From a virus: DNA of 25,918 nucleotides. Below are positions 11,911-22,206 of the stretch, piece by piece; the first letter of the stretch is position 1, and every line of letters begins with the position of its first letter. Location of the stretch: UHGV virus genome UHGV-0362220; one strand, 5' to 3'. The notes under the pieces are model-generated. The model was not told the origin of the DNA, did no database searches, and saw only the letters and a list, made by a program, of their open reading frames with translations. Made by a program: the position numbers and the translations under genes.

Positions 11911-12590
11911 TCATGACTGTGCTGCGAAGCTCAGCGCGTCTTCCAGCGCCGCAAACGGATCCACCTCCGGCTTATCCTCATCCTCGCCCCAGCAGAGCAT
12001 GGCGTCCTTCAGTGCAACATTCATCCCCTGTGCCCCAAAAACCGCTTTCACGATCTGTGCATTACGGATATCCCCGCGCTCATCACCCAGCGGGGATACC
12101 CTGTCGAACTCCATCCACATCATCGCCTCGCTCACACTCAGGCTGTGCCGCAGTTCGGATAAGGTGCGCCCCAGACGGAGCGCAAGTCGCATCAGAAAGC
12201 GAATTTCCGGGCGGGCTACTTTTTTCTGGCCGACTCTGCATCAGCGATCAGTTCCAGTGCCTGACGCAGCAACCGGGCATGTACCGGACCATAGACGGCC
12301 AGCACCTGCTCACGGTCGTCCGGAGCGAACACCCGCTGCAGATCCGTATCACACAGGACATCGCAGAACAGCGTCACATCCGCTTCTAGGTTACGGCGGG
12401 TTTTCGCCACCACCGACAGGGTATCGTCATCCTCTCCATCACCATTGAGCACTTCCTGCCACAGATACCAGGCCTCTGCCGAAGGCTCCCGCAGCACCAC
12501 GCTGACATTACCCCATTCCGGCACCTTCACCGTTTTATGACGAAACCCTGACAGTCTGGCCAGCGCCAGCGTTTTCAGATCCTTTTTCAT
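11911..12590 (-). CDS. T: tail assembly chaperone G-T fusion, made by programmed -1 ribosomal frameshift
   Basis: G reading frame ends ...AGA AAA AAG TAG; the -1 frame from the last G of AAG (12219) is open and runs into the 11911..12192 ORF (VARPEIRFLMRLALRLG...). Frame arithmetic checked by hand. Confidence 0.7.
12216..12590 (-). CDS. G: tail assembly chaperone G
   Basis: Start at ATG 12590 (MKKDLKTLALARL...) with AAGGGGA upstream, just after the V stop (12605); acidic C-terminus; position between V and H. Confidence 0.8.
   Translation of the reverse strand: MKKDLKTLALARLSGFRHKTVKVPEWGNVSVVLREPSAEAWYLWQEVLNGDGEDDDTLSVVAKTRRNLEADVTLFCDVLCDTDLQRVFAPDDREQVLAVYGPVHARLLRQALELIADAESARKK
12219..12225 (-). 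other. slippery heptamer A AAA AAG for the G to G-T -1 frameshift
   Basis: Minus-strand AAAAAAG directly followed by the G stop codon UAG (12218..12216). Confidence 0.7.
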
Positions 12591-12604
12591 GATGACCCAT
12601 CCCC

Positions 12605-13321
12605 TTATCCGGCGGCTGCGCTCACTGTCACGGTGCATTCAACAGACGTCACACTCTGTGCTTTCTCTGCCGAATCGGTCACCACGCAGGTATATTTCCC
12701 CGCATCAGCGGACTGCGCACCTGGCTTACTGAAGGTGTCTGTCGTCTGCCCGTCAACCGGCTGACCATCCTTCTTCCAGGCGTATTTATACGGCGGCGTT
12801 CCCCCGTTGGCACTGACTGACATTGTCAGCAGCGCACCTGTATTCACGGTAAGTGTTTTATCCAGATTTTTCACAAACGCCAGCGGTACCACAAAGGACA
12901 CCGGTTTGCCTTTCATACGCAGTGAAAACGTTGCTGCCACCACGCCGTTGGTACCGGATGACCAGGTGTGCTGACGCACTTCCGCCAGGAACTTAAAGCC
13001 CTTACCGGACGGAAACAGCACCTTAAACGCATACAACGCGTCATTGTCATAGGCATCACGCAGGGCGTTCTGGGCCTGATTCAGATAAAAATTACCCGAC
13101 ATGGAAATCTCAGACGACGCCCCCAGACCGTTGATGTTCTCCTGCTCGGTGGAGCAGAGCGTGGTCACATCAATATCCTGTTTCTGACCAGCGGTGAACT
13201 GGACTTCCTTGATGGTGCAGTCCAGGCGCAGATATTCCGCCTTATCCATAGTTTCAGCAGTCGCCGGGGCAGATGAAATCATCACCTGCGTCAGCTGTGA
13301 GCGTTCATACAAAGCAGACAT
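12605..13321 (-). CDS. V: major tail tube protein with C-terminal Ig-like domain (V-like)
   Basis: Position immediately upstream of G/G-T; C-terminal ~80 aa show an Ig-like pattern (PPYKYAWKKDG...DAGKYTCVVTD). N-terminal domain is not lambda V-like in sequence, so the call is positional plus domain-based. Confidence 0.8.
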   Translation of the reverse strand: MSALYERSQLTQVMISSAPATAETMDKAEYLRLDCTIKEVQFTAGQKQDIDVTTLCSTEQENINGLGASSEISMSGNFYLNQAQNALRDAYDNDALYAFKVLFPSGKGFKFLAEVRQHTWSSGTNGVVAATFSLRMKGKPVSFVVPLAFVKNLDKTLTVNTGALLTMSVSANGGTPPYKYAWKKDGQPVDGQTTDTFSKPGAQSADAGKYTCVVTDSAEKAQSVTSVECTVTVSAAAG

Positions 13322-13387: not shown

Positions 13388-13732
13388 TCACACCGTGACC
13401 TGAAACTCCAGGGTTGCACGGTAACAGCGGTTTTCCGGAATATAGTCCTGCATTTCACTGACGGATCCCGGGGCCAGCAGCATTATGGCTTCACGGGCGT
13501 CCTGACGTATCTGACGCGCCTGCGTCACAGTCCCGGCATAAACGTCTATCTGCACCGACACTGAGGACTCCGCCTGCCCGCCCATCACGTCCGCAGACAC
13601 CGATGAAATCAGGCTGAAAACCACCCACGGAAGCGCCACCGACGGCCTGCCATCCAGCAGGGGGACCACATACGGGTACACCTGCCCGCCGGCAAGATGC
13701 GCCAGATGAGGATACAAATCCGCCTCCGTCAT
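13388..13732 (-). CDS. tail terminator / neck protein candidate (gpU-equivalent position)
   Basis: 114-aa ORF between the gp10-like gene and the major tail gene, 4-nt overlap with the upstream gene. Call is positional only. Confidence 0.45.
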   Translation of the reverse strand: MTEADLYPHLAHLAGGQVYPYVVPLLDGRPSVALPWVVFSLISSVSADVMGGQAESSVSVQIDVYAGTVTQARQIRQDAREAIMLLAPGSVSEMQDYIPENRCYRATLEFQVTV

Positions 13733-14175
13733 CGTCTCAGTACCTCATCAATGGCCCGGTTCATCCGCGCAATCGCCACCTGAGCTGCCTGTTCACTGCG
13801 CACATCAAACGCCGGGCGCACAAACGGGTGCGGTGGCATATTCACGGTCCCCATTTCCACAAACCGCCAGTAGAAAGCATTGCGCGGGTTATCCGCCTTC
13901 ATGGTGTTATCGCTGTTACCGGTGTCCGGATTAACACCACGGATATGGACACCGGATTCCATCCCGCCATCGCGGGAGCGCCGGGAAAGGACCACCACAT
14001 TGCGGCGCAGTTTTCCCCTGCGTACCGGTGCCCGTGACACCACTTCTTCTTTCAGCACATTCGCACCCGCACGGGTTGCCTCACGCAGCACCCGGTTATT
14101 TTCCGCACCACTCAGAAGCTGCAAATCGCGGCTGATGTCCTCCAGCCCCGAAAAATCCAGCAGGGTTTCGATCAT
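13729..14175 (-). CDS. tail completion protein, HK97 gp10 family
   Basis: Conserved PHPFVRPAFD motif typical of the HK97 gp10 family; position in the head-tail joining module. Confidence 0.7.
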   Translation of the reverse strand: MIETLLDFSGLEDISRDLQLLSGAENNRVLREATRAGANVLKEEVVSRAPVRRGKLRRNVVVLSRRSRDGGMESGVHIRGVNPDTGNSDNTMKADNPRNAFYWRFVEMGTVNMPPHPFVRPAFDVRSEQAAQVAIARMNRAIDEVLRR

Positions 14176-14522
14176 TTTTCCCCTCCCAGCCGACAGAGAA
14201 TTTCCAGACGCCCGCCGGTCGCATCCGGCACGGGCAGCCCGACAACGTTCAGGATCCGGTCACGCCATGGACCACTCAGCACATGAAGTCGTGACGCTGC
14301 CGTGATTTCCCGACCGGACTGACCGCGCACCCAGATGCGGATTTCCGCCTGCGCCATTTCCGCACCGGACTGCATCCGCTCCCGGCTGCTCCTGCCTCGG
14401 ATATCCGCATGAATTTTCCCGCATGACACCCATTCTTCCGTCATTTCTCCGGCAGCGTTACGGGTTAACACCGGGTTCAGAACACTTATCATCTGTGTCA
14501 GACGACCTGCAGATATTGCCAT
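14172..14522 (-). CDS. head-tail adaptor / head closure protein
   Basis: 116 aa; C-terminal pattern (...EIRIWVRGQSGREITAASRLHVLSGPWRDRILNVVGLPVPD...LEILCRL) resembles the head-tail joining family; 4-nt overlaps with both neighbours. Confidence 0.65.
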   Translation of the reverse strand: MAISAGRLTQMISVLNPVLTRNAAGEMTEEWVSCGKIHADIRGRSSRERMQSGAEMAQAEIRIWVRGQSGREITAASRLHVLSGPWRDRILNVVGLPVPDATGGRLEILCRLGGEK

Positions 14523-14531
14523 TCCCCCTCC

Positions 14532-14858
14532 TCATAACACCGTCGGACAACGCAAATCGTAAATCAGCACGGAAACAGAAAACGGCAGCTCCCCCTGAAG
14601 CAGTTCTTCCCGCTCCGCAAGATCCGGATTCCGGTACAGCATCCCGGTCAGTCGCATGGCAGCCCCCTTCATCCGGGTTAATGCCTCGCCCGGGATCAGT
14701 TCACCGTCCTCACGGATCACTTTATCCCGGCTGCCCTGAATGTAGGCCAGCAGCACGGCGGTAGCCTGACGAACCTTGTCCATCAGCATGTCATCATCCG
14801 CGTCATGGTCGACACGCAGATGTGCCTTGATCTCTTCCAGTGTCAGTAATGCCGTCAT
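14532..14858 (-). CDS. head-tail connector protein (gp6-like)
   Basis: N-terminal LTLEEIKAHLRVDHDADDDML motif typical of gp6-like connectors; directly downstream of and overlapping the portal gene. Confidence 0.7.
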   Translation of the reverse strand: MTALLTLEEIKAHLRVDHDADDDMLMDKVRQATAVLLAYIQGSRDKVIREDGELIPGEALTRMKGAAMRLTGMLYRNPDLAEREELLQGELPFSVSVLIYDLRCPTVL

Positions 14859-17116
14859 TTTCCGCCTCCTGCATCCCGCCCACGTTTTGCAGCCAGGGTC
14901 CAGGCTGATGAATGAGCTTCTCCGGGTTTATCTTCGGTCATACTGTTGCAGTGCCACAGCGAGCCCCCCCACGTCACCGTATCGCCGGGGTGGTAGGTTT
15001 CACCGGCTCTGAACACACCGCGGTAGAGCATCACCGGCAGGGAAAATGTTTTTTCCGTACGCTGGCCACTGCTCTGCCGGACCACCACAGAGAACAACCG
15101 CTCACCCGTCATGCTGACGTCAATATCCGCCACCCCGTCAACCAGGCATTCCCATCCCCGCATCCCGTGCGTTTTTTCATACGCCCGCCAGAGTCCGCCC
15201 TGGTGTGTGGCATACGTGCCCCGGGGAAAGGATTTTTGATCGTCAATGGCGGGGAGTATTTCCAGAGCCGTGGCATCACGCCCGTCCTGCGGAGCCGGCA
15301 GGGCACTCACCGCATCCAGAACCGCCTTCTGCAGAACATCCGGATCGTAGTCACGACCATCACGCGGAACATGAATATGGCTTACCGCCTCCTTCACCAT
15401 CTGTTCAAGCATCGGACGCACATCATCCGGGGTGAGACTTTTACCGTCCGCCGGCTGCGGAATATTTGCGACCGCATCATTCACCGCCTGCTGCAGTACA
15501 TCCGGATCATAATCACGACCATCACGCGGTACCGGAATGGCCCCCACAGCGTCATCCACCATCGCCTGCAGAACCGGACGCACCTCATCCACCGTCACAT
15601 GCTTCTGTAATACCGCCGACAGGGAAGTCAGTTTCTCTTCAAACGCTTGTGCCTGCGAGGCCATCTTCCCCTCAAATGTGCGCTGTAAATCCGCCAGCAC
15701 TGTGGAGAATTCTTCTCCCAGTGCACGAATAATGGACAGTTCCCGTTCCGTCATTTTCTCAGTATCCCCCCTGAACATCGCTTTCACCGCATCATGCTCT
15801 GTTTCACTGATTGCCTTATTACCGTCAGATGCGCCGTCAGGCAGCTGTGATGAAACTGTTTTCCCGGCAGACGCGAACGGATCCTCACGGGCATCACGAC
15901 GGGACAGCGCCTCCAGACTGTAGTTCTGCTGCTGAAGATACAGTGCATCACCGCCGGCCAGGGGCGGCAGGTTCTCCCGTTTACGGGCCTCATTGGGCGT
16001 GAGAAGCGTATTTTTCACCGCATCCCCCAGCGTTTTCATGCGCCGCTCACTGTCCATTCTCAGCAGCGTGGTGACATCAAATTCTGTACTCTCGTTTTCC
16101 CCCGTTTCCAGCGCCTCATCCAGTAACAGTTCAATGGACTCAATCAGCGTCTGCAGGCACTGGGAATAATACTGCTGCTCCAGCGCCTCCACGTTGTCAC
16201 TGGAAGGCGGTTGTCCCACGCCAATCTTGTAGGCCGGGACACGGAACACCGAACAGACAATTTCAGCGGTCATCTTCAGTTGTTCCACCGTCTGCGCATC
16301 CACAGGTGAAAACGTCGTGGGGTTGTATTTTGCCCCGTTGCTCAGAATGGCCGTTTTCCCCGCATTTTCGCCTGTATACCCGCTGTCCCAGTTGCTCTTC
16401 AGTTTTTTCGCATTTTCTTCCGTAATACTGCCGGGGATCTCAATCACCCCGGACGGCCTGCCGCCATTTCTGAAAAAAGACGTCGAATTTTCCTGAATAT
16501 GATGCCCCTGCGTGGCCGCCAGCCCGGCGGCATACACCGGCGGCAATCCTATAAGCGGATGAAAAAAACAGTTAAACCGGTCGTGGATCACTTCCCGGGC
16601 AGGCACCGTCACCGCCTCCGTGATCCCGCAGTTCCGGTCCGGCGTGATGCGGTAGAACACCTCGCCGTCATCCGCCACCAGAGGTTCAACCCGGCTCCAG
16701 TCCAGAATACGCAGTTCTTTGATCTGCCCCCGGGCATTACGGATTTTCAGCACCACCGTATTGCCATGACGCAGTTTGGCGTTCAGCCACAGTTCAAAAA
16801 ACTGGATGCGGTTCTGCTGGGCGTTGGGACGACGACAGAGGCGGGCAATATCCCCCCGGCGCGTTTCCCTGCGTATCCCATGCGCATCCGTCTGCATAAG
16901 ACGCAGCCGCATTTTGGCGATATCCTGGGATATCAGCGAAATACATGCAAACACCGCATGAAAGGAGAGGACGGCTTCAGGATCGGCTTTCACGCCCTGC
17001 TGCCAGGCGCCGGAAAAGGGCTCAGCCACCGCCTGAAACAGGCTGGTCCAGCCCGCCTCTCTTACGTCACGTCCTGATTTCTGGTTTTTTCGGGTTCGCC
17101 GTAAAAGGTTCCACAT
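14855..17116 (-). CDS. portal protein (HK97 family) with ~350-aa C-terminal extension
   Basis: N-terminal ~400 aa carry HK97-portal signatures (FFRNGGRPSGVIEIPG..., ILSNGAKYNP..., FRVPAYKIGVG..., LTPNEARKRENLPPLAGGD). The extension holds two ~54-aa tandem repeats (VPRDGRDYDPDVLQ.AV.DAV) and an unrecognised terminal domain. Confidence 0.8.
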   Translation of the reverse strand: MWNLLRRTRKNQKSGRDVREAGWTSLFQAVAEPFSGAWQQGVKADPEAVLSFHAVFACISLISQDIAKMRLRLMQTDAHGIRRETRRGDIARLCRRPNAQQNRIQFFELWLNAKLRHGNTVVLKIRNARGQIKELRILDWSRVEPLVADDGEVFYRITPDRNCGITEAVTVPAREVIHDRFNCFFHPLIGLPPVYAAGLAATQGHHIQENSTSFFRNGGRPSGVIEIPGSITEENAKKLKSNWDSGYTGENAGKTAILSNGAKYNPTTFSPVDAQTVEQLKMTAEIVCSVFRVPAYKIGVGQPPSSDNVEALEQQYYSQCLQTLIESIELLLDEALETGENESTEFDVTTLLRMDSERRMKTLGDAVKNTLLTPNEARKRENLPPLAGGDALYLQQQNYSLEALSRRDAREDPFASAGKTVSSQLPDGASDGNKAISETEHDAVKAMFRGDTEKMTERELSIIRALGEEFSTVLADLQRTFEGKMASQAQAFEEKLTSLSAVLQKHVTVDEVRPVLQAMVDDAVGAIPVPRDGRDYDPDVLQQAVNDAVANIPQPADGKSLTPDDVRPMLEQMVKEAVSHIHVPRDGRDYDPDVLQKAVLDAVSALPAPQDGRDATALEILPAIDDQKSFPRGTYATHQGGLWRAYEKTHGMRGWECLVDGVADIDVSMTGERLFSVVVRQSSGQRTEKTFSLPVMLYRGVFRAGETYHPGDTVTWGGSLWHCNSMTEDKPGEAHSSAWTLAAKRGRDAGGGK

Positions 17117-17283
17117 TCGCCATGCTCCGCATCACGTTTCTTTTTCTGACCTGCCGGACGTCGCACCGTGATGTACTCCGCCTTTCCCAGGCGAACCAGC
17201 ACCTCCGCACACGGCTGTGCCACATCACGGATATCCCCGGCCCGGGCATCATGCGTGCCCTGCAGATATCGGATCTTTGCCAT
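17062..17283 (-). CDS. hypothetical protein (73 aa) between capsid and portal genes
   Basis: ATG at 17283 downstream of an SD-hairpin arrangement; overlaps the annotated portal start by 55 nt; basic and lysine-rich. Coding status uncertain. Confidence 0.3.
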   Translation of the reverse strand: MAKIRYLQGTHDARAGDIRDVAQPCAEVLVRLGKAEYITVRRPAGQKKKRDAEHGECGTFYGEPEKTRNQDVT

Positions 17284-17327: not shown

Positions 17328-19265
17328 TCAGCCGCCGGACGCACTGCCGTAGTTCACTCCGGTGATCACCGCCACCGCCGCAGTACGGCGACGACGCCAG
17401 TTGATCCAGCGCTCCGCACGGATGGCCACGCTGCCTGTCTGGAACATGGAAACCAGCTCCACCGGGGACGGCGTGGTACTGTCGCCGGTCGGCTCAGACT
17501 GCATTTCCAGTGATGCCTCGCGGGACATATCCACTGCCACGCCGCCGTCATCCGCCAGATAAATATCCGGGGCATTCACCAGCACCAGCTGGTCACCCAC
17601 GTACTGGGAGACAATCACCGGCAGCCCCTGGAAGGAGCCACCCAGCAGGGTCATGTCCGGGTATTCCTTCTGACCCAGCGCATTTTTACGCATGGACAGT
17701 GCCAGGGCATTGGTGCTGGACATCAGCCAGACCGCACCGGTGGGCTGCAGGTTTGCTGCCACAAACTGTCCAAACGCAGCCTCTGCATCCGCATCCGGGT
17801 TACCGGTTGATGCCGTGCCCTTCACATCATGGGTGATGGACGCCGGGGAGACATCTGCCACTGCGGCTTTTTTCGGGTCCACAAAGTCTGTATCCAGACG
17901 CGCCACCACCGCTTCCGCCAGCGCATTACGGACCAGTGCATCAGCAGCCGGACTGGAAAAACGGATCAATTCTTCCGTCAGTACCGCAATGGCCGACACC
18001 TTCGCATGACTGAAGGTGATGGATTCAAAATCAAACTTCGTCAGGGGTTTTGCCTTACCCTCACCCACCCAGCCGGCAGCACCGCCGGACACCTGGGCGT
18101 GCACACGGATATTGAATGGCACCTGACGAAGTGCAGGGATCCCGCCCTGACCAAATCGCCCGATAATGGTCTGCGGACGCAGGTAATCAATAAAGTCCTG
18201 TGCGTATTCCTGATATTCAGACAGGCTGCCTGCCCACTGCGGATCCGTGGTGGTCCCCGCGCCCACTGCCGATTTCAGGACATGATGCAGACGACTGTCA
18301 TCCGGATACTGACGACGGGCCACTTCCAGGGCTTCAGATCGGACGCCTTTAGCCGCAGCCAGCGATTTGGCAAAGCGGGCGAAGCCAATCCCCTTATCCA
18401 GTTTCTGCTCCACACGGATCACCGGCGCAGAAGCCACCGCGGCCACATTCCCGTTACCGGCCTGTTTCACCGGCTGCGCCGTGGCGGCCTTACCGGCTTC
18501 CAGTTCACGCAGGCGCTTCAGGTGCGCATCCACCTGACGGATTTCCGCTGCGGTGTTGTCGTAATGCTCTTCCTCCTCCACATCCAGCGTGCGCCCTTCC
18601 TCTGCGGCTTTGGTCATGACCTCCTCAAGGGAGGCTGCCAGCGCTGCACGCTTGTTTTCAAAACTTTTAATCTGTTCGCCAATATTCATTATGGTCTTTT
18701 CCTTATGAAAAACGGTTGTTGACTGTGCCGCAGCGCCGGCAGAAGATGCGATTTTCACCACCGGTTTCCGGTTGCCGGACGCGGCAGAAAACGGGCGGTC
18801 GTAAGATTTAATGGTCCGGATGGTGCATTCCGCATTCGCGGGCACGGTGACGGCAGACACCTCCATCAGTTCCCAGCGCAGAAAATGCAGTCCGCCTCCG
18901 TCCAGAAAGGTGTATTCATGGGGACGGAAGCCCACGGACAGCCCCCTGACCAGCCCGGTCTTAATGGCCGCCCAGACCTCATCCAGCCGGGCAGCCAGTT
19001 GCGACGGCATATCCGGTACGGGCTTCACCAGTGTTGCCGTGATTTCCAGCCCTTCGCTGACCCGGCGCACCGTACACTGCCCCACCGGGCGGGAATGGTC
19101 ATGCTGCCAGAGAAACGGGATCGCACTGCCAAACTCCGCGCCCTCCGGCTCCAGGATGTCACCATCCCGATCCGGAGAAGGCGTTGACGCAATCCCGGTG
19201 ATCACCCGTTCATCCTCACTGAAGGATTTCACCGTCAGCAGGGAACAGGCCCGTTTAAGAGTCAC
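17328..19265 (-). CDS. prohead protease (S78 family) fused in frame to an HK97-type major capsid protein
   Basis: N-terminus has S78 protease motifs (QHDHSRPVGQ, GLSVGF, ELMEVSAVTVPAN); then a coiled-coil segment and a capsid-like C-terminal half. GTG start at 19265 with AGGAGG 5 nt upstream. An internal in-frame ATG (MNIGEQIKSFENKRAA...) has AAGGAAAAG upstream. Confidence 0.8.
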   Translation of the reverse strand: MTLKRACSLLTVKSFSEDERVITGIASTPSPDRDGDILEPEGAEFGSAIPFLWQHDHSRPVGQCTVRRVSEGLEITATLVKPVPDMPSQLAARLDEVWAAIKTGLVRGLSVGFRPHEYTFLDGGGLHFLRWELMEVSAVTVPANAECTIRTIKSYDRPFSAASGNRKPVVKIASSAGAAAQSTTVFHKEKTIMNIGEQIKSFENKRAALAASLEEVMTKAAEEGRTLDVEEEEHYDNTAAEIRQVDAHLKRLRELEAGKAATAQPVKQAGNGNVAAVASAPVIRVEQKLDKGIGFARFAKSLAAAKGVRSEALEVARRQYPDDSRLHHVLKSAVGAGTTTDPQWAGSLSEYQEYAQDFIDYLRPQTIIGRFGQGGIPALRQVPFNIRVHAQVSGGAAGWVGEGKAKPLTKFDFESITFSHAKVSAIAVLTEELIRFSSPAADALVRNALAEAVVARLDTDFVDPKKAAVADVSPASITHDVKGTASTGNPDADAEAAFGQFVAANLQPTGAVWLMSSTNALALSMRKNALGQKEYPDMTLLGGSFQGLPVIVSQYVGDQLVLVNAPDIYLADDGGVAVDMSREASLEMQSEPTGDSTTPSPVELVSMFQTGSVAIRAERWINWRRRRTAAVAVITGVNYGSASGG

Positions 19266-21840: not shown

Positions 21841-22206
21841 TTACAGTCCGATGATGTCGTCCTCTCTGCCACTACCTCCGGACACCTCCGGCAGCGTCGG
21901 GTCCGGCATACCACTCGCCGCTTCACGAGCAGACTTTTGTCGATGGCATTCGGCACAGAGCGTCCAAAGATTCGTCTCCTCATTACCACCACCGAACTGA
22001 AGTGCAATTCGGTGATCGAGTTCACTGTCACAGAGGTCAACCACACGACCACAGATACAGCACTGCCCGGCGTCCCTCAGCCAGATATGACGCTTGAGGG
22101 AAACACGTGCACTGCCACTGACACGACGCTGCTCCCCCTTCAGAATATTCACCCGTCGGGTATTCAGTGTTTTGATTCTGCTCTGGAGTGTACGAAGCTC
22201 AGCCAT
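21841..22206 (-). CDS. HNH homing-type endonuclease (terminase-associated)
   Basis: Classic HNH motif: CCICGR...DHRIALQFGG...NLWTLCAECHRQK. Lies immediately upstream of the terminase genes. Confidence 0.9.
   Translation of the reverse strand: MAELRTLQSRIKTLNTRRVNILKGEQRRVSGSARVSLKRHIWLRDAGQCCICGRVVDLCDSELDHRIALQFGGGNEETNLWTLCAECHRQKSAREAASGMPDPTLPEVSGGSGREDDIIGL

What the first reader, a model, noticed from the sequence alone, without database searches (positions are those of the whole stretch)
14855..15990. Portal protein carries a ~350-aa C-terminal extension with two 54-aa tandem repeats
The HK97-portal signature ends near residue 395 (NEARKRENLPPLAGGD), where such portals normally finish. 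Here the frame continues ~350 aa more: a helical segment, two tandem ~54-aa repeats (TVDEVRPVLQAMVDDAVGAIPVPRDGRDYDPDVLQQAVNDAV... and TPDDVRPMLEQMVKEAVSHIHVPRDGRDYDPDVLQKAVLDAV...), and a ~120-aa W/G-containing terminal domain. The repeats are ~162-bp direct repeats in the DNA (about 15280..15600). An in-frame ATG with GAGGGGAAG upstream (MASQAQAFEEK..., near 15670) could also yield the extension as a separate nested protein, by analogy with lambda C/Nu3. The extension could be a scaffold, decoration or ejection-protein-like module.
Basis: partly seen in the sequence, partly recalled or inferred. Interest (0 to 1): 0.5.

Follow-up and report, generated by a model that had tools for sequence, protein, structure and literature searches.

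The report
Portal fused to neighbouring fibre-like gene
The long tail on this prophage portal protein is really a separate, widely conserved fibre-like gene that a single extra G has welded onto the portal gene, a real and common variant in E. coli prophages whose function is still unknown.

Summary
Window 14855-17116 (-) is one 753-aa ORF: an HK97-type portal, then about 300 extra residues holding two 54-aa repeats and a beta-rich end domain.

The extension is not a grown portal domain. In 27 of 27 loci from other genera the portal and the "extension" are two separate genes, with overlapping stop and start in 26 (enterobacteria: ..AMLRGLLTK*, ATGA, MNERELSLIK..). About half of the E. coli relatives keep this layout. 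They differ from the window by one base: TTCAGGGGGAT (G5, split) against TTCAGGGGGGAT (G6, fused; window 15766-15771).

Both states are heritable and common. The exact window protein occurs on 512 contigs. Phages 2851, YYZ-2008 and WGPS6 are fused; phi330, a plaque-former on K-12, also has G6, though its record is ambiguous. BP-4795, 1717 and JLK-2012 are split.

The downstream gene belongs to a large uncharacterised family (5702 clusters at 50% identity; PHROG 1289, mislabelled "portal protein"). It has an N-terminal helix, 1-7 or more helix/Pro-rich repeats (collagen-like in a third of relatives) and a conserved CBM5/12-like domain.

My best reading is a portal-associated accessory fibre, here tethered to the portal C-terminus. 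Its location and function are inferred, not shown.

The parts
14855..17116 (-). Fused portal-plus-fibre ORF, 753 aa plus stop codon
   Evidence: ORF list. The exact protein is in public collections on 512 contigs, named 'phage portal protein'. The DNA is 100% identical to E. coli AVS0543.
15767..17116 (-). Portal proper (residues 1-450), HK97 family
   Evidence: Pfam PF04860 covers residues 54-382, E 5e-81. PDB portals 9lbn and 8cez align to residues 43-420. In split relatives the portal ends 9 codons after the G-run.
15766..15771 (-). G6 homopolymer (C6 on the + strand): the single-base insertion that fuses the two genes
   Evidence: The alignment shows TTCAGGGGGGAT in the window against TTCAGGGGGAT in JLK-2012 and Stx2_EH1910. 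The tally is 59 G5 and 42 G6 loci, with no G4 or G7.
15751..15754 (-). ATGA: ancestral start codon of the downstream gene (Met455, MTERELS) overlapping the ancestral portal stop, which is out of frame here
   Evidence: Junction sequences of 101 loci. The same ATGA overlap is seen in other enterobacterial genera.
15596..15754 (-). N-terminal long helix of the fibre-like protein (residues 455-507)
   Evidence: AlphaFold2 gives a helix at residues 3-50 of the extension with pLDDT about 90. The N-terminus is conserved as MNERELSLIK in relatives.
15662..15664 (-).
   Evidence: Present in the sequence. Not a conserved Met in the family alignment. Not the start used in split relatives.
15434..15595 (-). 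54-aa repeat 1 (residues 508-561), made of two 27-aa helix plus IPxPxDG units
15272..15433 (-). 54-aa repeat 2 (residues 562-615)
   Evidence: Copy number is 1-7 in relatives.
14858..15271 (-). Conserved all-beta C-terminal domain (residues 616-753) with CBM5/12-like subdomain(s)
14964..14970 (-). Second homopolymer (G7) inside the C-terminal domain; a frameshift hotspot in relatives
   Evidence: Three relatives end 'VTWGARCGTATV'.
14532..14858 (-). Head-tail adaptor (gp6-like); its start overlaps the stop of the fused ORF (ATGA)
   Evidence: Pfam Phage_connect_1. The order portal, fibre-like gene, adaptor is conserved.

Best explanation
The 'extension' is a gene fusion.

Shown:
- The ancestral arrangement, kept in every relative from other genera examined and in roughly half of the E. 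coli copies, is two genes. One is an HK97-type portal of about 451 aa. The other lies directly downstream, and its start overlaps the portal stop (ATGA). That layout is typical of termination-reinitiation coupling, which would tie its output to that of the portal.
- In the window's lineage one extra G in an AGGGGG run, nine codons before the portal stop, moves the portal frame into the downstream frame. Every portal polypeptide therefore continues into the full downstream protein.
- The downstream protein has a 48-residue N-terminal helix, a copy-number-variable stalk of 27/54-aa helix plus Pro-rich units, and a strongly conserved CBM5/12-like beta domain.
- The fused allele is heritable and widespread.

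Inferred:
- The downstream protein is a low-copy accessory fibre of the portal vertex. It is probably trimeric, because a third of its relatives replace or supplement the stalk with collagen-like G-X-Y runs.
- It docks through its N-terminal helix at or near the portal C-terminal tail. This would explain why covalent tethering there is tolerated and has arisen more than once.
- A portal C-terminus lies in the crown, which faces the capsid interior (established from solved portals). The tethered copies must therefore sit inside the head, as about 12 flexible stalks or 4 trimers.
- The C-terminal domain is conserved across phages of unrelated hosts. That points to a conserved ligand, such as peptidoglycan-like glycan, DNA or a phage partner, rather than a host-specific receptor.
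- The ancestral start Met455 and its purine-rich upstream element are intact. Some free protein may therefore still be made from the fused mRNA.
For: Fusion by one base:
- Alignment of the window with split relatives shows the G-run as the only frame-changing difference.
- Of 101 loci, 59 are G5 and 42 are G6.
- In G5 loci the portal ends ..MFRGILRK*, and the -1-frame ORF starting MTERELS is intact with the same C-terminus in 38 of 43 complete cases.

The split state is ancestral:
- In 27 of 27 loci from Pseudomonas phages PAJU2 and IME307, EBPR siphovirus 3, Rhizobium phage RHph_X2_26 and 23 bacterial genomes of other genera, the two are separate ORFs. They overlap in 26; in the Rhizobium phage a 4-nt gap separates them.
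- Enterobacterial portals end ..AMLRGLLTK*, homologous to the E. coli G5 ending.

The states are stable and real:
- Only 6 state changes are needed on an 84-tip tree, against 27.4 (minimum 19) in shuffles. There are 20 distinct G6 flank haplotypes differing by up to 7.8%.
- The exact protein is on 512 contigs, and the 861-aa form on at least 1000.

Compatible with viable phage:
- Fused forms occur in phages 2851, YYZ-2008 and WGPS6.
- phi330, a close relative of WGPS6 with G6, plaques on K-12 at 1e9 PFU/ml (PMC12502783).
- All neighbouring virion genes in the window are intact.
- pN/pS of the fibre domain is 0.16 in G6 loci and 0.19 in G5 loci.

Family and architecture:
- 5702 representative clusters match, and only 2 of the best 150 carry a portal domain. 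One of these, P0206, is an independent fusion at 41% identity.
- The structure model has mean pLDDT 83.8, with the C-domain at about 97.
- Fold matches are to CBM5/12 domains and phage fibre tips.
- 51 of 150 relatives have at least 5 G-X-Y triplets.
Against: - No experiment shows that the fibre-like protein is in virions, where it sits, or that it binds the portal.
- Collagen-like, CBM-tipped fibres are usually external adhesins. An interior location would be unusual.
- Purifying selection in G6 loci may reflect divergence that predates the fusion, or that arrived by recombination. G6 and G5 C-domains are equally diverse (pS 0.11).
- If free protein is still made from Met455, the survival of the fused allele says little about where the protein works.
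- The window's own copy has no collagen-like run, so trimerisation is extrapolated from relatives.
- The phi330 record carries a 2-nt insertion upstream of the G-run that would re-separate the genes. That record also has indels in essential genes and is probably error-prone, so its true state is uncertain.
Confidence: 0.6

Rival explanations
1. The downstream protein is an external neck or collar whisker, analogous to T4 fibritin. It would be anchored by its N-terminus at the portal-adaptor junction and use the CBM-like tip for reversible binding to cell-surface glycans. On this view the fused allele is a tolerated accident. The working protein still comes from the retained internal start (Met455), making the gene nested in frame like lambda C/Nu3. 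The portal-tethered copies would be inert cargo inside the head.
For: - The architecture resembles fibritin-type and tail-fibre proteins: helix, segmented stalk and small beta tip, with collagen-like runs in 51 of 150 relatives.
- Fold neighbours are phage tail-fibre tips and carbohydrate-binding modules.
- The gene sits directly upstream of the head-tail adaptor.
- The start codon and a purine-rich element (AGAGGA or AGGGGG) 11 nt upstream are conserved across enterobacterial relatives and kept in the window.
- One relative (P0206) has a stalk of about 24 units, which is long for an internal part.
Against: - The tip domain is the most conserved part of the protein. It is 53-70% identical between phages of E. 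coli, Pseudomonas, Marinobacter and Haliea, with pN/pS of 0.16-0.19. Host-specific receptor binders are usually the opposite.
- The 11-12 nt spacing is long for a Shine-Dalgarno element, so independent initiation may be weak once coupling is lost.
- Fusion to the portal has arisen at least twice.
- phi330 infection depends on OmpC through the J-type central fibre (PMC12502783).
Confidence: 0.3
2. The fused allele is an inactivating frameshift. On this view G6 prophages have a crippled portal, are defective or rely on helper prophages, and the long ORF is a pseudogene that looks like a gene.
For: - It is a single-base indel in a homopolymer, a typical decay mutation.
- E. coli carries up to 18 copies of this module per genome, so complementation is plausible.
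- O157 prophages with morphogenesis defects are still packaged and transferred (PMC2669165).
Against: - The state is clade-forming, with 20 distinct haplotypes.
- 25 of 31 complete G6 downstream ORFs are full length, similar to 38 of 43 in G5.
- The portal in G6 loci shows pN/pS of 0.09.
- Named phages with the fused form include 2851 and WGPS6. The WGPS6-like phi330 plaques on K-12.
- All other virion genes in the window are intact.
Confidence: 0.08
3. The G-run is a programmed recoding site or a phase-variable contingency tract. Ribosomal or transcriptional slippage, or frequent G5/G6 switching, would then let one genome make both the plain portal and the portal-fibre fusion in a set ratio.
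For: - The two observed states are exactly those that give either coupled genes or an in-frame fusion. No G4 or G7 was seen in 101 loci.
- In G5 E. coli copies the portal stop context A_AAA_TGA would allow a -1 P-site slip into ATG ACG.
- At least 6 independent state changes are inferred.
Against: - The slippery context is not conserved in other genera, which have ACC AAA TGA or GCC AAA TGA, while the ATGA overlap is conserved.
- Most relatives have AGAGGA, not a G-run, at this position.
- State changes are rare relative to sequence divergence: 6 against 27 expected if the state were unlinked to phylogeny.
- Runs of 5-6 G are short for efficient polymerase slippage (general knowledge).
Confidence: 0.06
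4. This is a sequencing or assembly artefact. On this view the window really has G5 and two genes.
For: Homopolymer length errors are common, and RefSeq flags some copies of this locus as 'frameshifted'.
Against: - G6 is found in 42 independent loci and in Sanger-era phage genomes (2851, YYZ-2008).
- The exact 753-aa protein is on 512 contigs.
- The state follows phylogeny.
Confidence: 0.01

Closest known systems
PHROG phrog_1289 / phrog_2271 ('portal protein'), and RefSeq 'phage portal protein' entries such as WP_000267294.1
   Same: The extension matches phrog_1289 end to end (E 3e-156). The whole ORF matches phrog_2271, an 859-position profile built from fused four-repeat forms. Identical proteins are already deposited.
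   Different: These entries carry only a transferred name. The standalone family has no portal domain (148 of the best 150 representatives) and no described function. Other sources call the same protein 'gp6-like head-tail connector' or 'carbohydrate binding domain'.
P22-type portal C-terminal barrel (gp1 residues about 602-725; from memory)
   Same: It is extra C-terminal polypeptide on a portal that must project from the crown into the capsid interior, and it begins with a long helix.
   Different: There is no sequence relation. Here the addition is a whole separate gene with a repeat stalk and a beta domain, joined through a disordered linker of about 35 residues. Barrel formation is untested.
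SPP1 gp7 / Mu gpF 'minor head protein' encoded next to the portal (from memory)
   Same: The gene lies directly after the portal, is low copy, and is thought to bind the portal inside the head. It is occasionally fused to other modules.
   Different: No PF04233 (Phage_Mu_F) match appeared in any Pfam scan. The fold and architecture are entirely different.
T4 fibritin (wac) and other neck or collar whiskers (from memory)
   Same: It has a short N-terminal attachment segment, a segmented helical stalk with loop interruptions and a small C-terminal beta domain. Its gene is adjacent to neck genes.
   Different: There is no homology. Whiskers are external, whereas the fused copies here cannot be. 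The tip is CBM5/12-like rather than a foldon.
CBM5/12 chitin-binding modules (Serratia ChiB, Streptomyces ChiC CBD, Vibrio chitin deacetylase) and CBM-tipped, collagen-like phage fibres
   Different: The Pfam score in the window is below the gathering threshold (19.5-22 against 26.2 bits). Ligand binding is untested. The domain here is larger (138 aa) and contains additional beta structure.
Lambda side-tail-fibre (stf) frameshift, Ur-lambda versus laboratory lambda (from memory)
   Same: A one-base indel changes the ORF structure of an accessory fibre gene, and both alleles exist in viable phage.
   Different: In lambda the indel splits and disables a fibre gene. Here it joins a fibre-like gene to the portal.

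Membership tests
HK97-family portal (PF04860 / TIGR01537) | Portal domain scoring above the curated threshold | tested here: met
   PF04860 scores 272.8 bits against a cut-off of 39.1, over residues 54-382.
HK97-family portal (PF04860 / TIGR01537) | Homology to solved portals through the crown, with the protein ending shortly afterwards (about 400-450 aa) | tested here: not met
   Homology to 9lbn (431 aa) and 8cez (424 aa) ends near residue 420. The ORF continues to 753 aa. Split relatives end at 450-454 aa.
Portal-adjacent fibre-like family (phrog_1289) | N-terminal helix, helix/Pro-rich repeats and conserved C-terminal domain DGRDAL..ILP.ID..KSYPRGTYA.H.GGLW...GDTVTWGGSLWHC...KPG...W.LA.KRGRD | tested here: met
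   phrog_1289 E 3.4e-156. 49-sequence alignment with invariant W/G/D/P columns. Structure model.
Portal-adjacent fibre-like family (phrog_1289) | Separate gene directly downstream of the portal, usually overlapping its stop, and upstream of the head-tail adaptor | tested here: not met
   The position is kept, but the gene is fused in frame in the window. It is separate in 27 of 27 loci from other genera and in 59 of 101 E. coli-type loci.
CBM5/12 carbohydrate-binding module | Pfam PF02839 above the gathering score | tested here: not met
   19.5 bits for the full ORF and 22.0 bits for the extension alone, against 26.2. Klebsiella homologues reach 26.0, and some have PF02839 precomputed.
CBM5/12 carbohydrate-binding module | Small beta fold superposable on solved CBM5/12 domains | tested here: met
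CBM5/12 carbohydrate-binding module | Binds chitin, cellulose or a related glycan | not testable with these tools
   Needs binding assays with the recombinant domain.
Collagen-like trimeric phage fibre | Runs of G-X-Y triplets (5 or more) | tested here: not met
   The window copy has none. 51 of the best 150 family representatives do. The window has only isolated PxPxDG(K/R)D motifs.
Programmed ribosomal frameshift (lambda G/GT type) | Slippery site conserved among relatives at the frame junction | tested here: not met
   A_AAA_TGA occurs in E. coli G5 copies but is not conserved in other genera. The ATGA overlap is conserved.
Nested in-frame gene (lambda C/Nu3 type) | Internal in-frame start codon with an upstream ribosome-binding element | tested here: inconclusive
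The ancestral start Met455 and the purine-rich run 11 nt upstream are intact, but the spacing is long and use of the start is untested.
Phase-variable contingency locus | Homopolymer whose length switches often and reversibly between close relatives | tested here: not met
   6 changes on 84 tips against 27.4 in shuffles. One identical-flank pair differs. Only two lengths are seen. Within-population variation was not testable.
MuF / SPP1 gp7 minor head protein | PF04233 (Phage_Mu_F) domain | tested here: not met
   No such hit in Pfam scans of the ORF, the extension or relatives.
P22-type portal barrel | C-terminal helices of the twelve subunits forming a continuous tube above the crown | not testable with these tools
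   Only a monomer model is available. A 48-residue helix is predicted after a low-complexity linker of about 35 residues.

The most novel reading that the evidence does not exclude
HK97-like siphophages of many proteobacteria carry an unrecognised virion component. It would be a portal-stoichiometric, probably trimeric stalk with a conserved CBM5/12-like head, docked on the portal crown inside the capsid. There it could hold the DNA end or leave first through the tail to bind peptidoglycan. The E. coli fusion would be a natural 'Rosetta stone' revealing that contact.
Probability: 0.25. Interest if true: 0.7.

Novelty: new variant of a known kind. Interest (0 to 1): 0.45.

Why it matters
First, annotation. 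Thousands of database entries call the standalone downstream protein a 'portal protein' or a 'gp6-like connector'. RefSeq and O157 phage records mark at least some copies of this locus as frameshifted pseudogenes. The O157 literature scores several of these portals as defective, for reasons I did not see. The comparative evidence says the split form is the ancestral, normal state and the fused form is the derived one.

Second, biology. A natural, viable fusion of a portal to its neighbour suggests that this large uncharacterised family (5702 clusters at 50% identity) works at the portal vertex. Nothing is known about it experimentally. The G5/G6 pair in otherwise near-identical Stx phages is a ready-made experiment: BP-4795 against 2851, WGPS6 and phi330.

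Third, practice. The 162-bp repeats and the multiple copies per genome are a likely reason why so many database entries for this gene are partial.

Tried and rejected
- Tandem Repeats Finder found no 162-bp array; the seed-based repeat finder did.
- NCBIfam gave nothing for the extension or nine relatives.
- PDB sequence and profile searches found no solved homologue of the extension. The only hits were to the short CBM-like motif, plus chance hits to designed helical repeats.
- The search for related loci with the 49-sequence alignment failed for lack of a conserved stretch. A smaller C-domain alignment worked.
- Literature searches found no study of this protein, its fusion or its presence in virions. 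Strauch et al. 2008 on phage 2851 is not held, so the infectivity of 2851 rests on my memory.
- The Antarctic Pseudomonas phage paper proved irrelevant. It has a different head module, and its 'head morphogenesis protein' was not shown to be related.
- Klebsiella homologues named 'gp6-like head-tail connector' are not fusions to the adaptor. They show no similarity to the window's adaptor, and their length fits four repeats.
- A newer Pfam family, PF28083, is recorded for some relatives, including extension-only proteins. It is absent from the local Pfam copy, so I could not learn what it is.
- pN/pS for G5 portals (0.46) is probably inflated by indel misregister in my fixed-length extraction. 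I did not use it.
- I considered a head-length 'ruler' role, because prolate heads are reported for some of these phages. I dropped it: copy number varies from 1 to 7 among near-identical phages, and phi330 has an isometric head.
Full report
**Observation**

Window 14855-17116 on the minus strand is a single 753-aa ORF. Pfam Phage_portal covers residues 54-382 (E 5e-81). Sequence homology to solved HK97-type portals of 424-431 aa (9lbn, 8cez) runs to about residue 420. About 300-330 further residues follow:
- a low-complexity acidic linker;
- a helical segment (455-507);
- two 54-aa repeats (508-561 and 562-615), 34/54 identical, encoded by a 162-nt-spaced direct repeat that is 76% identical over 120 nt;
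- a 138-aa terminal domain.

The in-frame ATG with GAGGGGAAG upstream is Met485 at 15662-15664.

**Surroundings**

The ORF sits in an uninterrupted late operon of a lambdoid prophage. The order is:
- endolysin, Rz and HNH endonuclease;
- TerS and TerL;
- a protease-scaffold-capsid fusion gene;
- a 73-aa ORF;
- this ORF;
- the gp6-like adaptor, head closure, Neck1 and tail terminator;
- an Ig-tagged major tail protein and the G/T chaperones;
- tape measure, M, L, K, I and J, and a tail fibre.

The DNA is 100% identical to E. coli AVS0543. 1246 of 5426 complete E. coli genomes carry a match, with up to 18 places per genome.

**The key comparison**

Phage records with over 92% identity cover the query with 2261, 2423, 2585 or 2747 nt, so they differ by whole 162-nt units. 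Many annotate two genes instead of one. In an alignment across the junction, the one indel that changes the reading frame is a homopolymer. The window and 569R3 read TTCAGGGGGGAT. JLK-2012 and Stx2_EH1910 read TTCAGGGGGAT.

With five Gs the portal ends nine codons later (..AMFRGILRK*). The next gene starts at an ATG that overlaps this stop (AAAATGACG, giving MTERELS..). With six Gs the portal frame passes into that gene (..AMFRGDTEK-MTERELS..).

An exact-pattern scan of IMG/VR, together with the three phage-database loci already fetched, gave 59 G5 and 42 G6 loci and no other length. In G5 loci the downstream ORF is intact with the same C-terminus in 38 of 43 complete cases. Its lengths are 245, 299, 353, 407, 461 and 515 aa. 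The G6 set adds 569 aa, so relatives carry 1-7 repeats.

**Which state is ancestral**

The downstream protein has relatives far outside E. coli. In every case with upstream sequence (27 of 27), the portal and this protein are separate ORFs. Stop and start overlap in 26; in the Rhizobium phage they are 4 nt apart. These cases are:
- Pseudomonas phages PAJU2 (gp06/gp07) and IME307;
- EBPR siphovirus 3 (gp4/gp5);
- Rhizobium phage RHph_X2_26;
- 23 of 25 genome loci, from Phytobacter, Kosakonia, Kluyvera, Atlantibacter, Enterobacter, Citrobacter, Buttiauxella, Pantoea, Serratia, Morganella, Pseudomonas, Pseudoduganella, Marinobacter and Haliea.

Enterobacterial portals end ..AMLRGLLTK* with AAATGAATGAACG. 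That is the same ATGA overlap and a homologous C-terminal peptide to the E. coli G5 form. The split state is therefore ancestral. The window's fusion is derived by insertion of one G.

**Is the fused state real and stable?**

On a neighbour-joining tree of 1.5 kb of flanks (84 loci), G6 forms mainly one clade that includes the window. Only 6 state changes are needed, against 27.4 (minimum 19) when states are shuffled. G6 comprises 20 distinct flank haplotypes differing by up to 119 of 1531 positions.

The exact 753-aa protein is on 512 contigs, including O25b:H4-ST131. An 861-aa form is on at least 1000 contigs. The fused cluster has 6387 member sequences, against 1728 and 2367 for two split-portal clusters.

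Named phages fall on both sides. 2851, YYZ-2008 and WGPS6 are fused; BP-4795, 1717 and JLK-2012 are split. phi330 is a near-twin of WGPS6 with G6. It plaques on K-12 at 1e9 PFU/ml and has a 55-nm head and a 145-nm tail (PMC12502783). Its record also shows a 2-nt insertion upstream that would re-separate the genes. That record differs from WGPS6 by seven small indels, some in essential genes, so I treat it as unreliable.

The rate of ORF disruption is similar in the two states: 6 of 31 in G6 and 5 of 43 in G5. pN/pS of the terminal domain is 0.16 in G6 and 0.19 in G5. Recombination could have imported that diversity, so this is weak evidence for continued function.

**What the downstream protein is**

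A full HMMER scan found 5702 representative clusters (50% identity) at E<=1e-3 and 569 at E<=1e-30. Nearly all are standalone proteins of 250-700 aa. Only 2 of the best 150 contain a portal domain. One is the E. coli group. The other is P0206 (1237 aa, 41% identity, about 24 units of 27 aa), which I take to be an independent fusion.

PHROGs holds the family as phrog_1289, labelled 'portal protein'. Other sources call it 'gp6-like head-tail connector' or 'carbohydrate binding domain'. I checked the Klebsiella proteins and they are not adaptor fusions.

AlphaFold2 with a 49-sequence alignment gives:
- a 48-residue N-terminal helix (pLDDT about 90);
- repeat units each made of one helix plus a Pro-rich loop (pLDDT 60-78);
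- an all-beta terminal domain (pLDDT about 97).

51 of the 150 relatives contain at least 5 G-X-Y triplets. Such runs form trimers (established knowledge), so the family is probably trimeric. The window's own copy lacks such a run.

**How it most likely works**

Shown:
- two ancestrally separate genes, with stop and start overlapping in 26 of 27 outgroup loci, joined here by one base;
- the joined allele is inherited and common.

Inferred:
- The ATGA overlap implies termination-reinitiation coupling, so the protein is made in portal-like, low amounts.
- Tolerance of a covalent link to the portal C-terminus, probably arising twice independently, suggests that the N-terminal helix normally sits near that terminus.
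- Solved portals all place the C-terminus in the crown, facing the capsid interior (general knowledge; P22, SPP1, HK97, T4). The tethered copies must therefore be inside the head. By volume this is easy: 12 x 300 aa is about 0.4 MDa.
- The terminal domain is the best-conserved part across phages of unrelated hosts (53-70% identity). That argues for a conserved ligand rather than a host-specific receptor.
- The ancestral start Met455 and a purine-rich element 11 nt upstream (AGAGGA, AGGGGG or CGGGGG in all enterobacterial relatives) survive. Some free protein may still be made.

**Rivals**

- External whisker. The protein could be an external, fibritin-like neck whisker, with the fusion a tolerated accident. 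Its fibre-like build and fold neighbours favour this. The conserved tip and the recurrent fusion count against it.
- Inactivating mutation. This is unlikely given the clade structure, the named phages and the intact neighbouring genes.
- Programmed frameshifting or phase variation. I find no support for either. The slippery context is not conserved, most relatives lack a G-run, and state changes are rare.
- Sequencing error. This is excluded for practical purposes.

**Comparison with known systems**

It works somewhat like a P22 barrel or an SPP1 gp7/Mu F protein, which are portal-attached internal parts. It looks like a fibritin or a CBM-tipped fibre. It is a sequence member of none of these. 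It is a member of the HK97 portal family (N-terminal 450 aa) and of the uncharacterised phrog_1289 family (C-terminal 299 aa).

The fused protein itself is already in databases under a portal name. New here are the recognition that it is a fusion, the direction of the change, the single-base cause, and the size and architecture of the downstream family. I found no paper that addresses any of this.

Noticed in passing
window 14964-14970 (-): A second homopolymer, G7 (TGG GGG GGC, the W-G-G of the CBM-like motif), lies inside the terminal domain. Three related loci end prematurely with 'VTWGARCGTATV', which is a frameshift at this run.
   Followed up: partly
window 17328-19265 (-): A single 645-aa gene combines a prohead protease (S78), a coiled-coil stretch and an HK97-type capsid domain. 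It lies upstream of the portal, which is an unusual order (TerL, protease-capsid, portal). The same order is seen in Pseudomonas phage PAJU2.
   Followed up: partly
window 17062-17283 (-): A conserved 73-aa ORF of unknown function (phrog_829) overlaps the portal start by 55 nt. It is annotated as hypothetical in all relatives.
   Followed up: no
window 13729-14522 (-): PHROG phrog_23409 (264 positions) spans both the head-closure gene (14172-14522) and the Neck1/gp10-like gene (13729-14175). Fused versions of this overlapping pair therefore also exist in databases; phage 569R3 annotates a 246-aa product there. This may be another indel-driven fusion, or a sequencing error.
   Followed up: no
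window 11911-12638 (-): This is a tail chaperone pair: 12216-12638 (phrog_344) and 11911-12192 (phrog_337). phrog_14766 covers both, as expected for a lambda G/GT-type frameshift product.
   Followed up: no
window 12605-13321 (-): The major tail protein carries a C-terminal Ig-like domain and matches Hoc-like decoration PHROGs. Some phage records mislabel it 'fibritin'.
   Followed up: no
L138 (phi330, PV189401) 5151; also 6134, 6176, 6216, 7460, 8513: The phi330 record has G6 plus a CT insertion about 70 nt upstream, which would restore a separate portal (444 aa) and downstream gene. The record differs from WGPS6 by seven small indels, including some in essential tail genes. These are probably sequence errors. 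If the CT insertion is real, it would be a second-site reversal of the fusion.
   Followed up: partly
L103 (E. coli RM9975) and phage records WGPS8 / F349: In L103 RefSeq flags the portal ORF as 'frameshifted' and both pieces as incomplete pseudogenes. The WGPS8 and F349 phage records label the region 'portal protein (pseudogene)'. Asadulghani et al. 2009 score the portal as defective in Sakai Sp6, Sp9 and Sp12 and intact in Sp10. I did not check which G-run state those prophages have.
   Followed up: partly
proteins P0002, P0330-P0338 (relatives): Pfam family PF28083 is precomputed for many relatives, including extension-only proteins. It is not in the local Pfam copy, so its name and extent are unknown to me. 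It may already describe part of this extension.
   Followed up: no
window 21841-22206 (-): An HNH endonuclease gene lies just upstream of the small terminase. This arrangement is often linked to cos-site cleavage in HK97-like phages.
   Followed up: no
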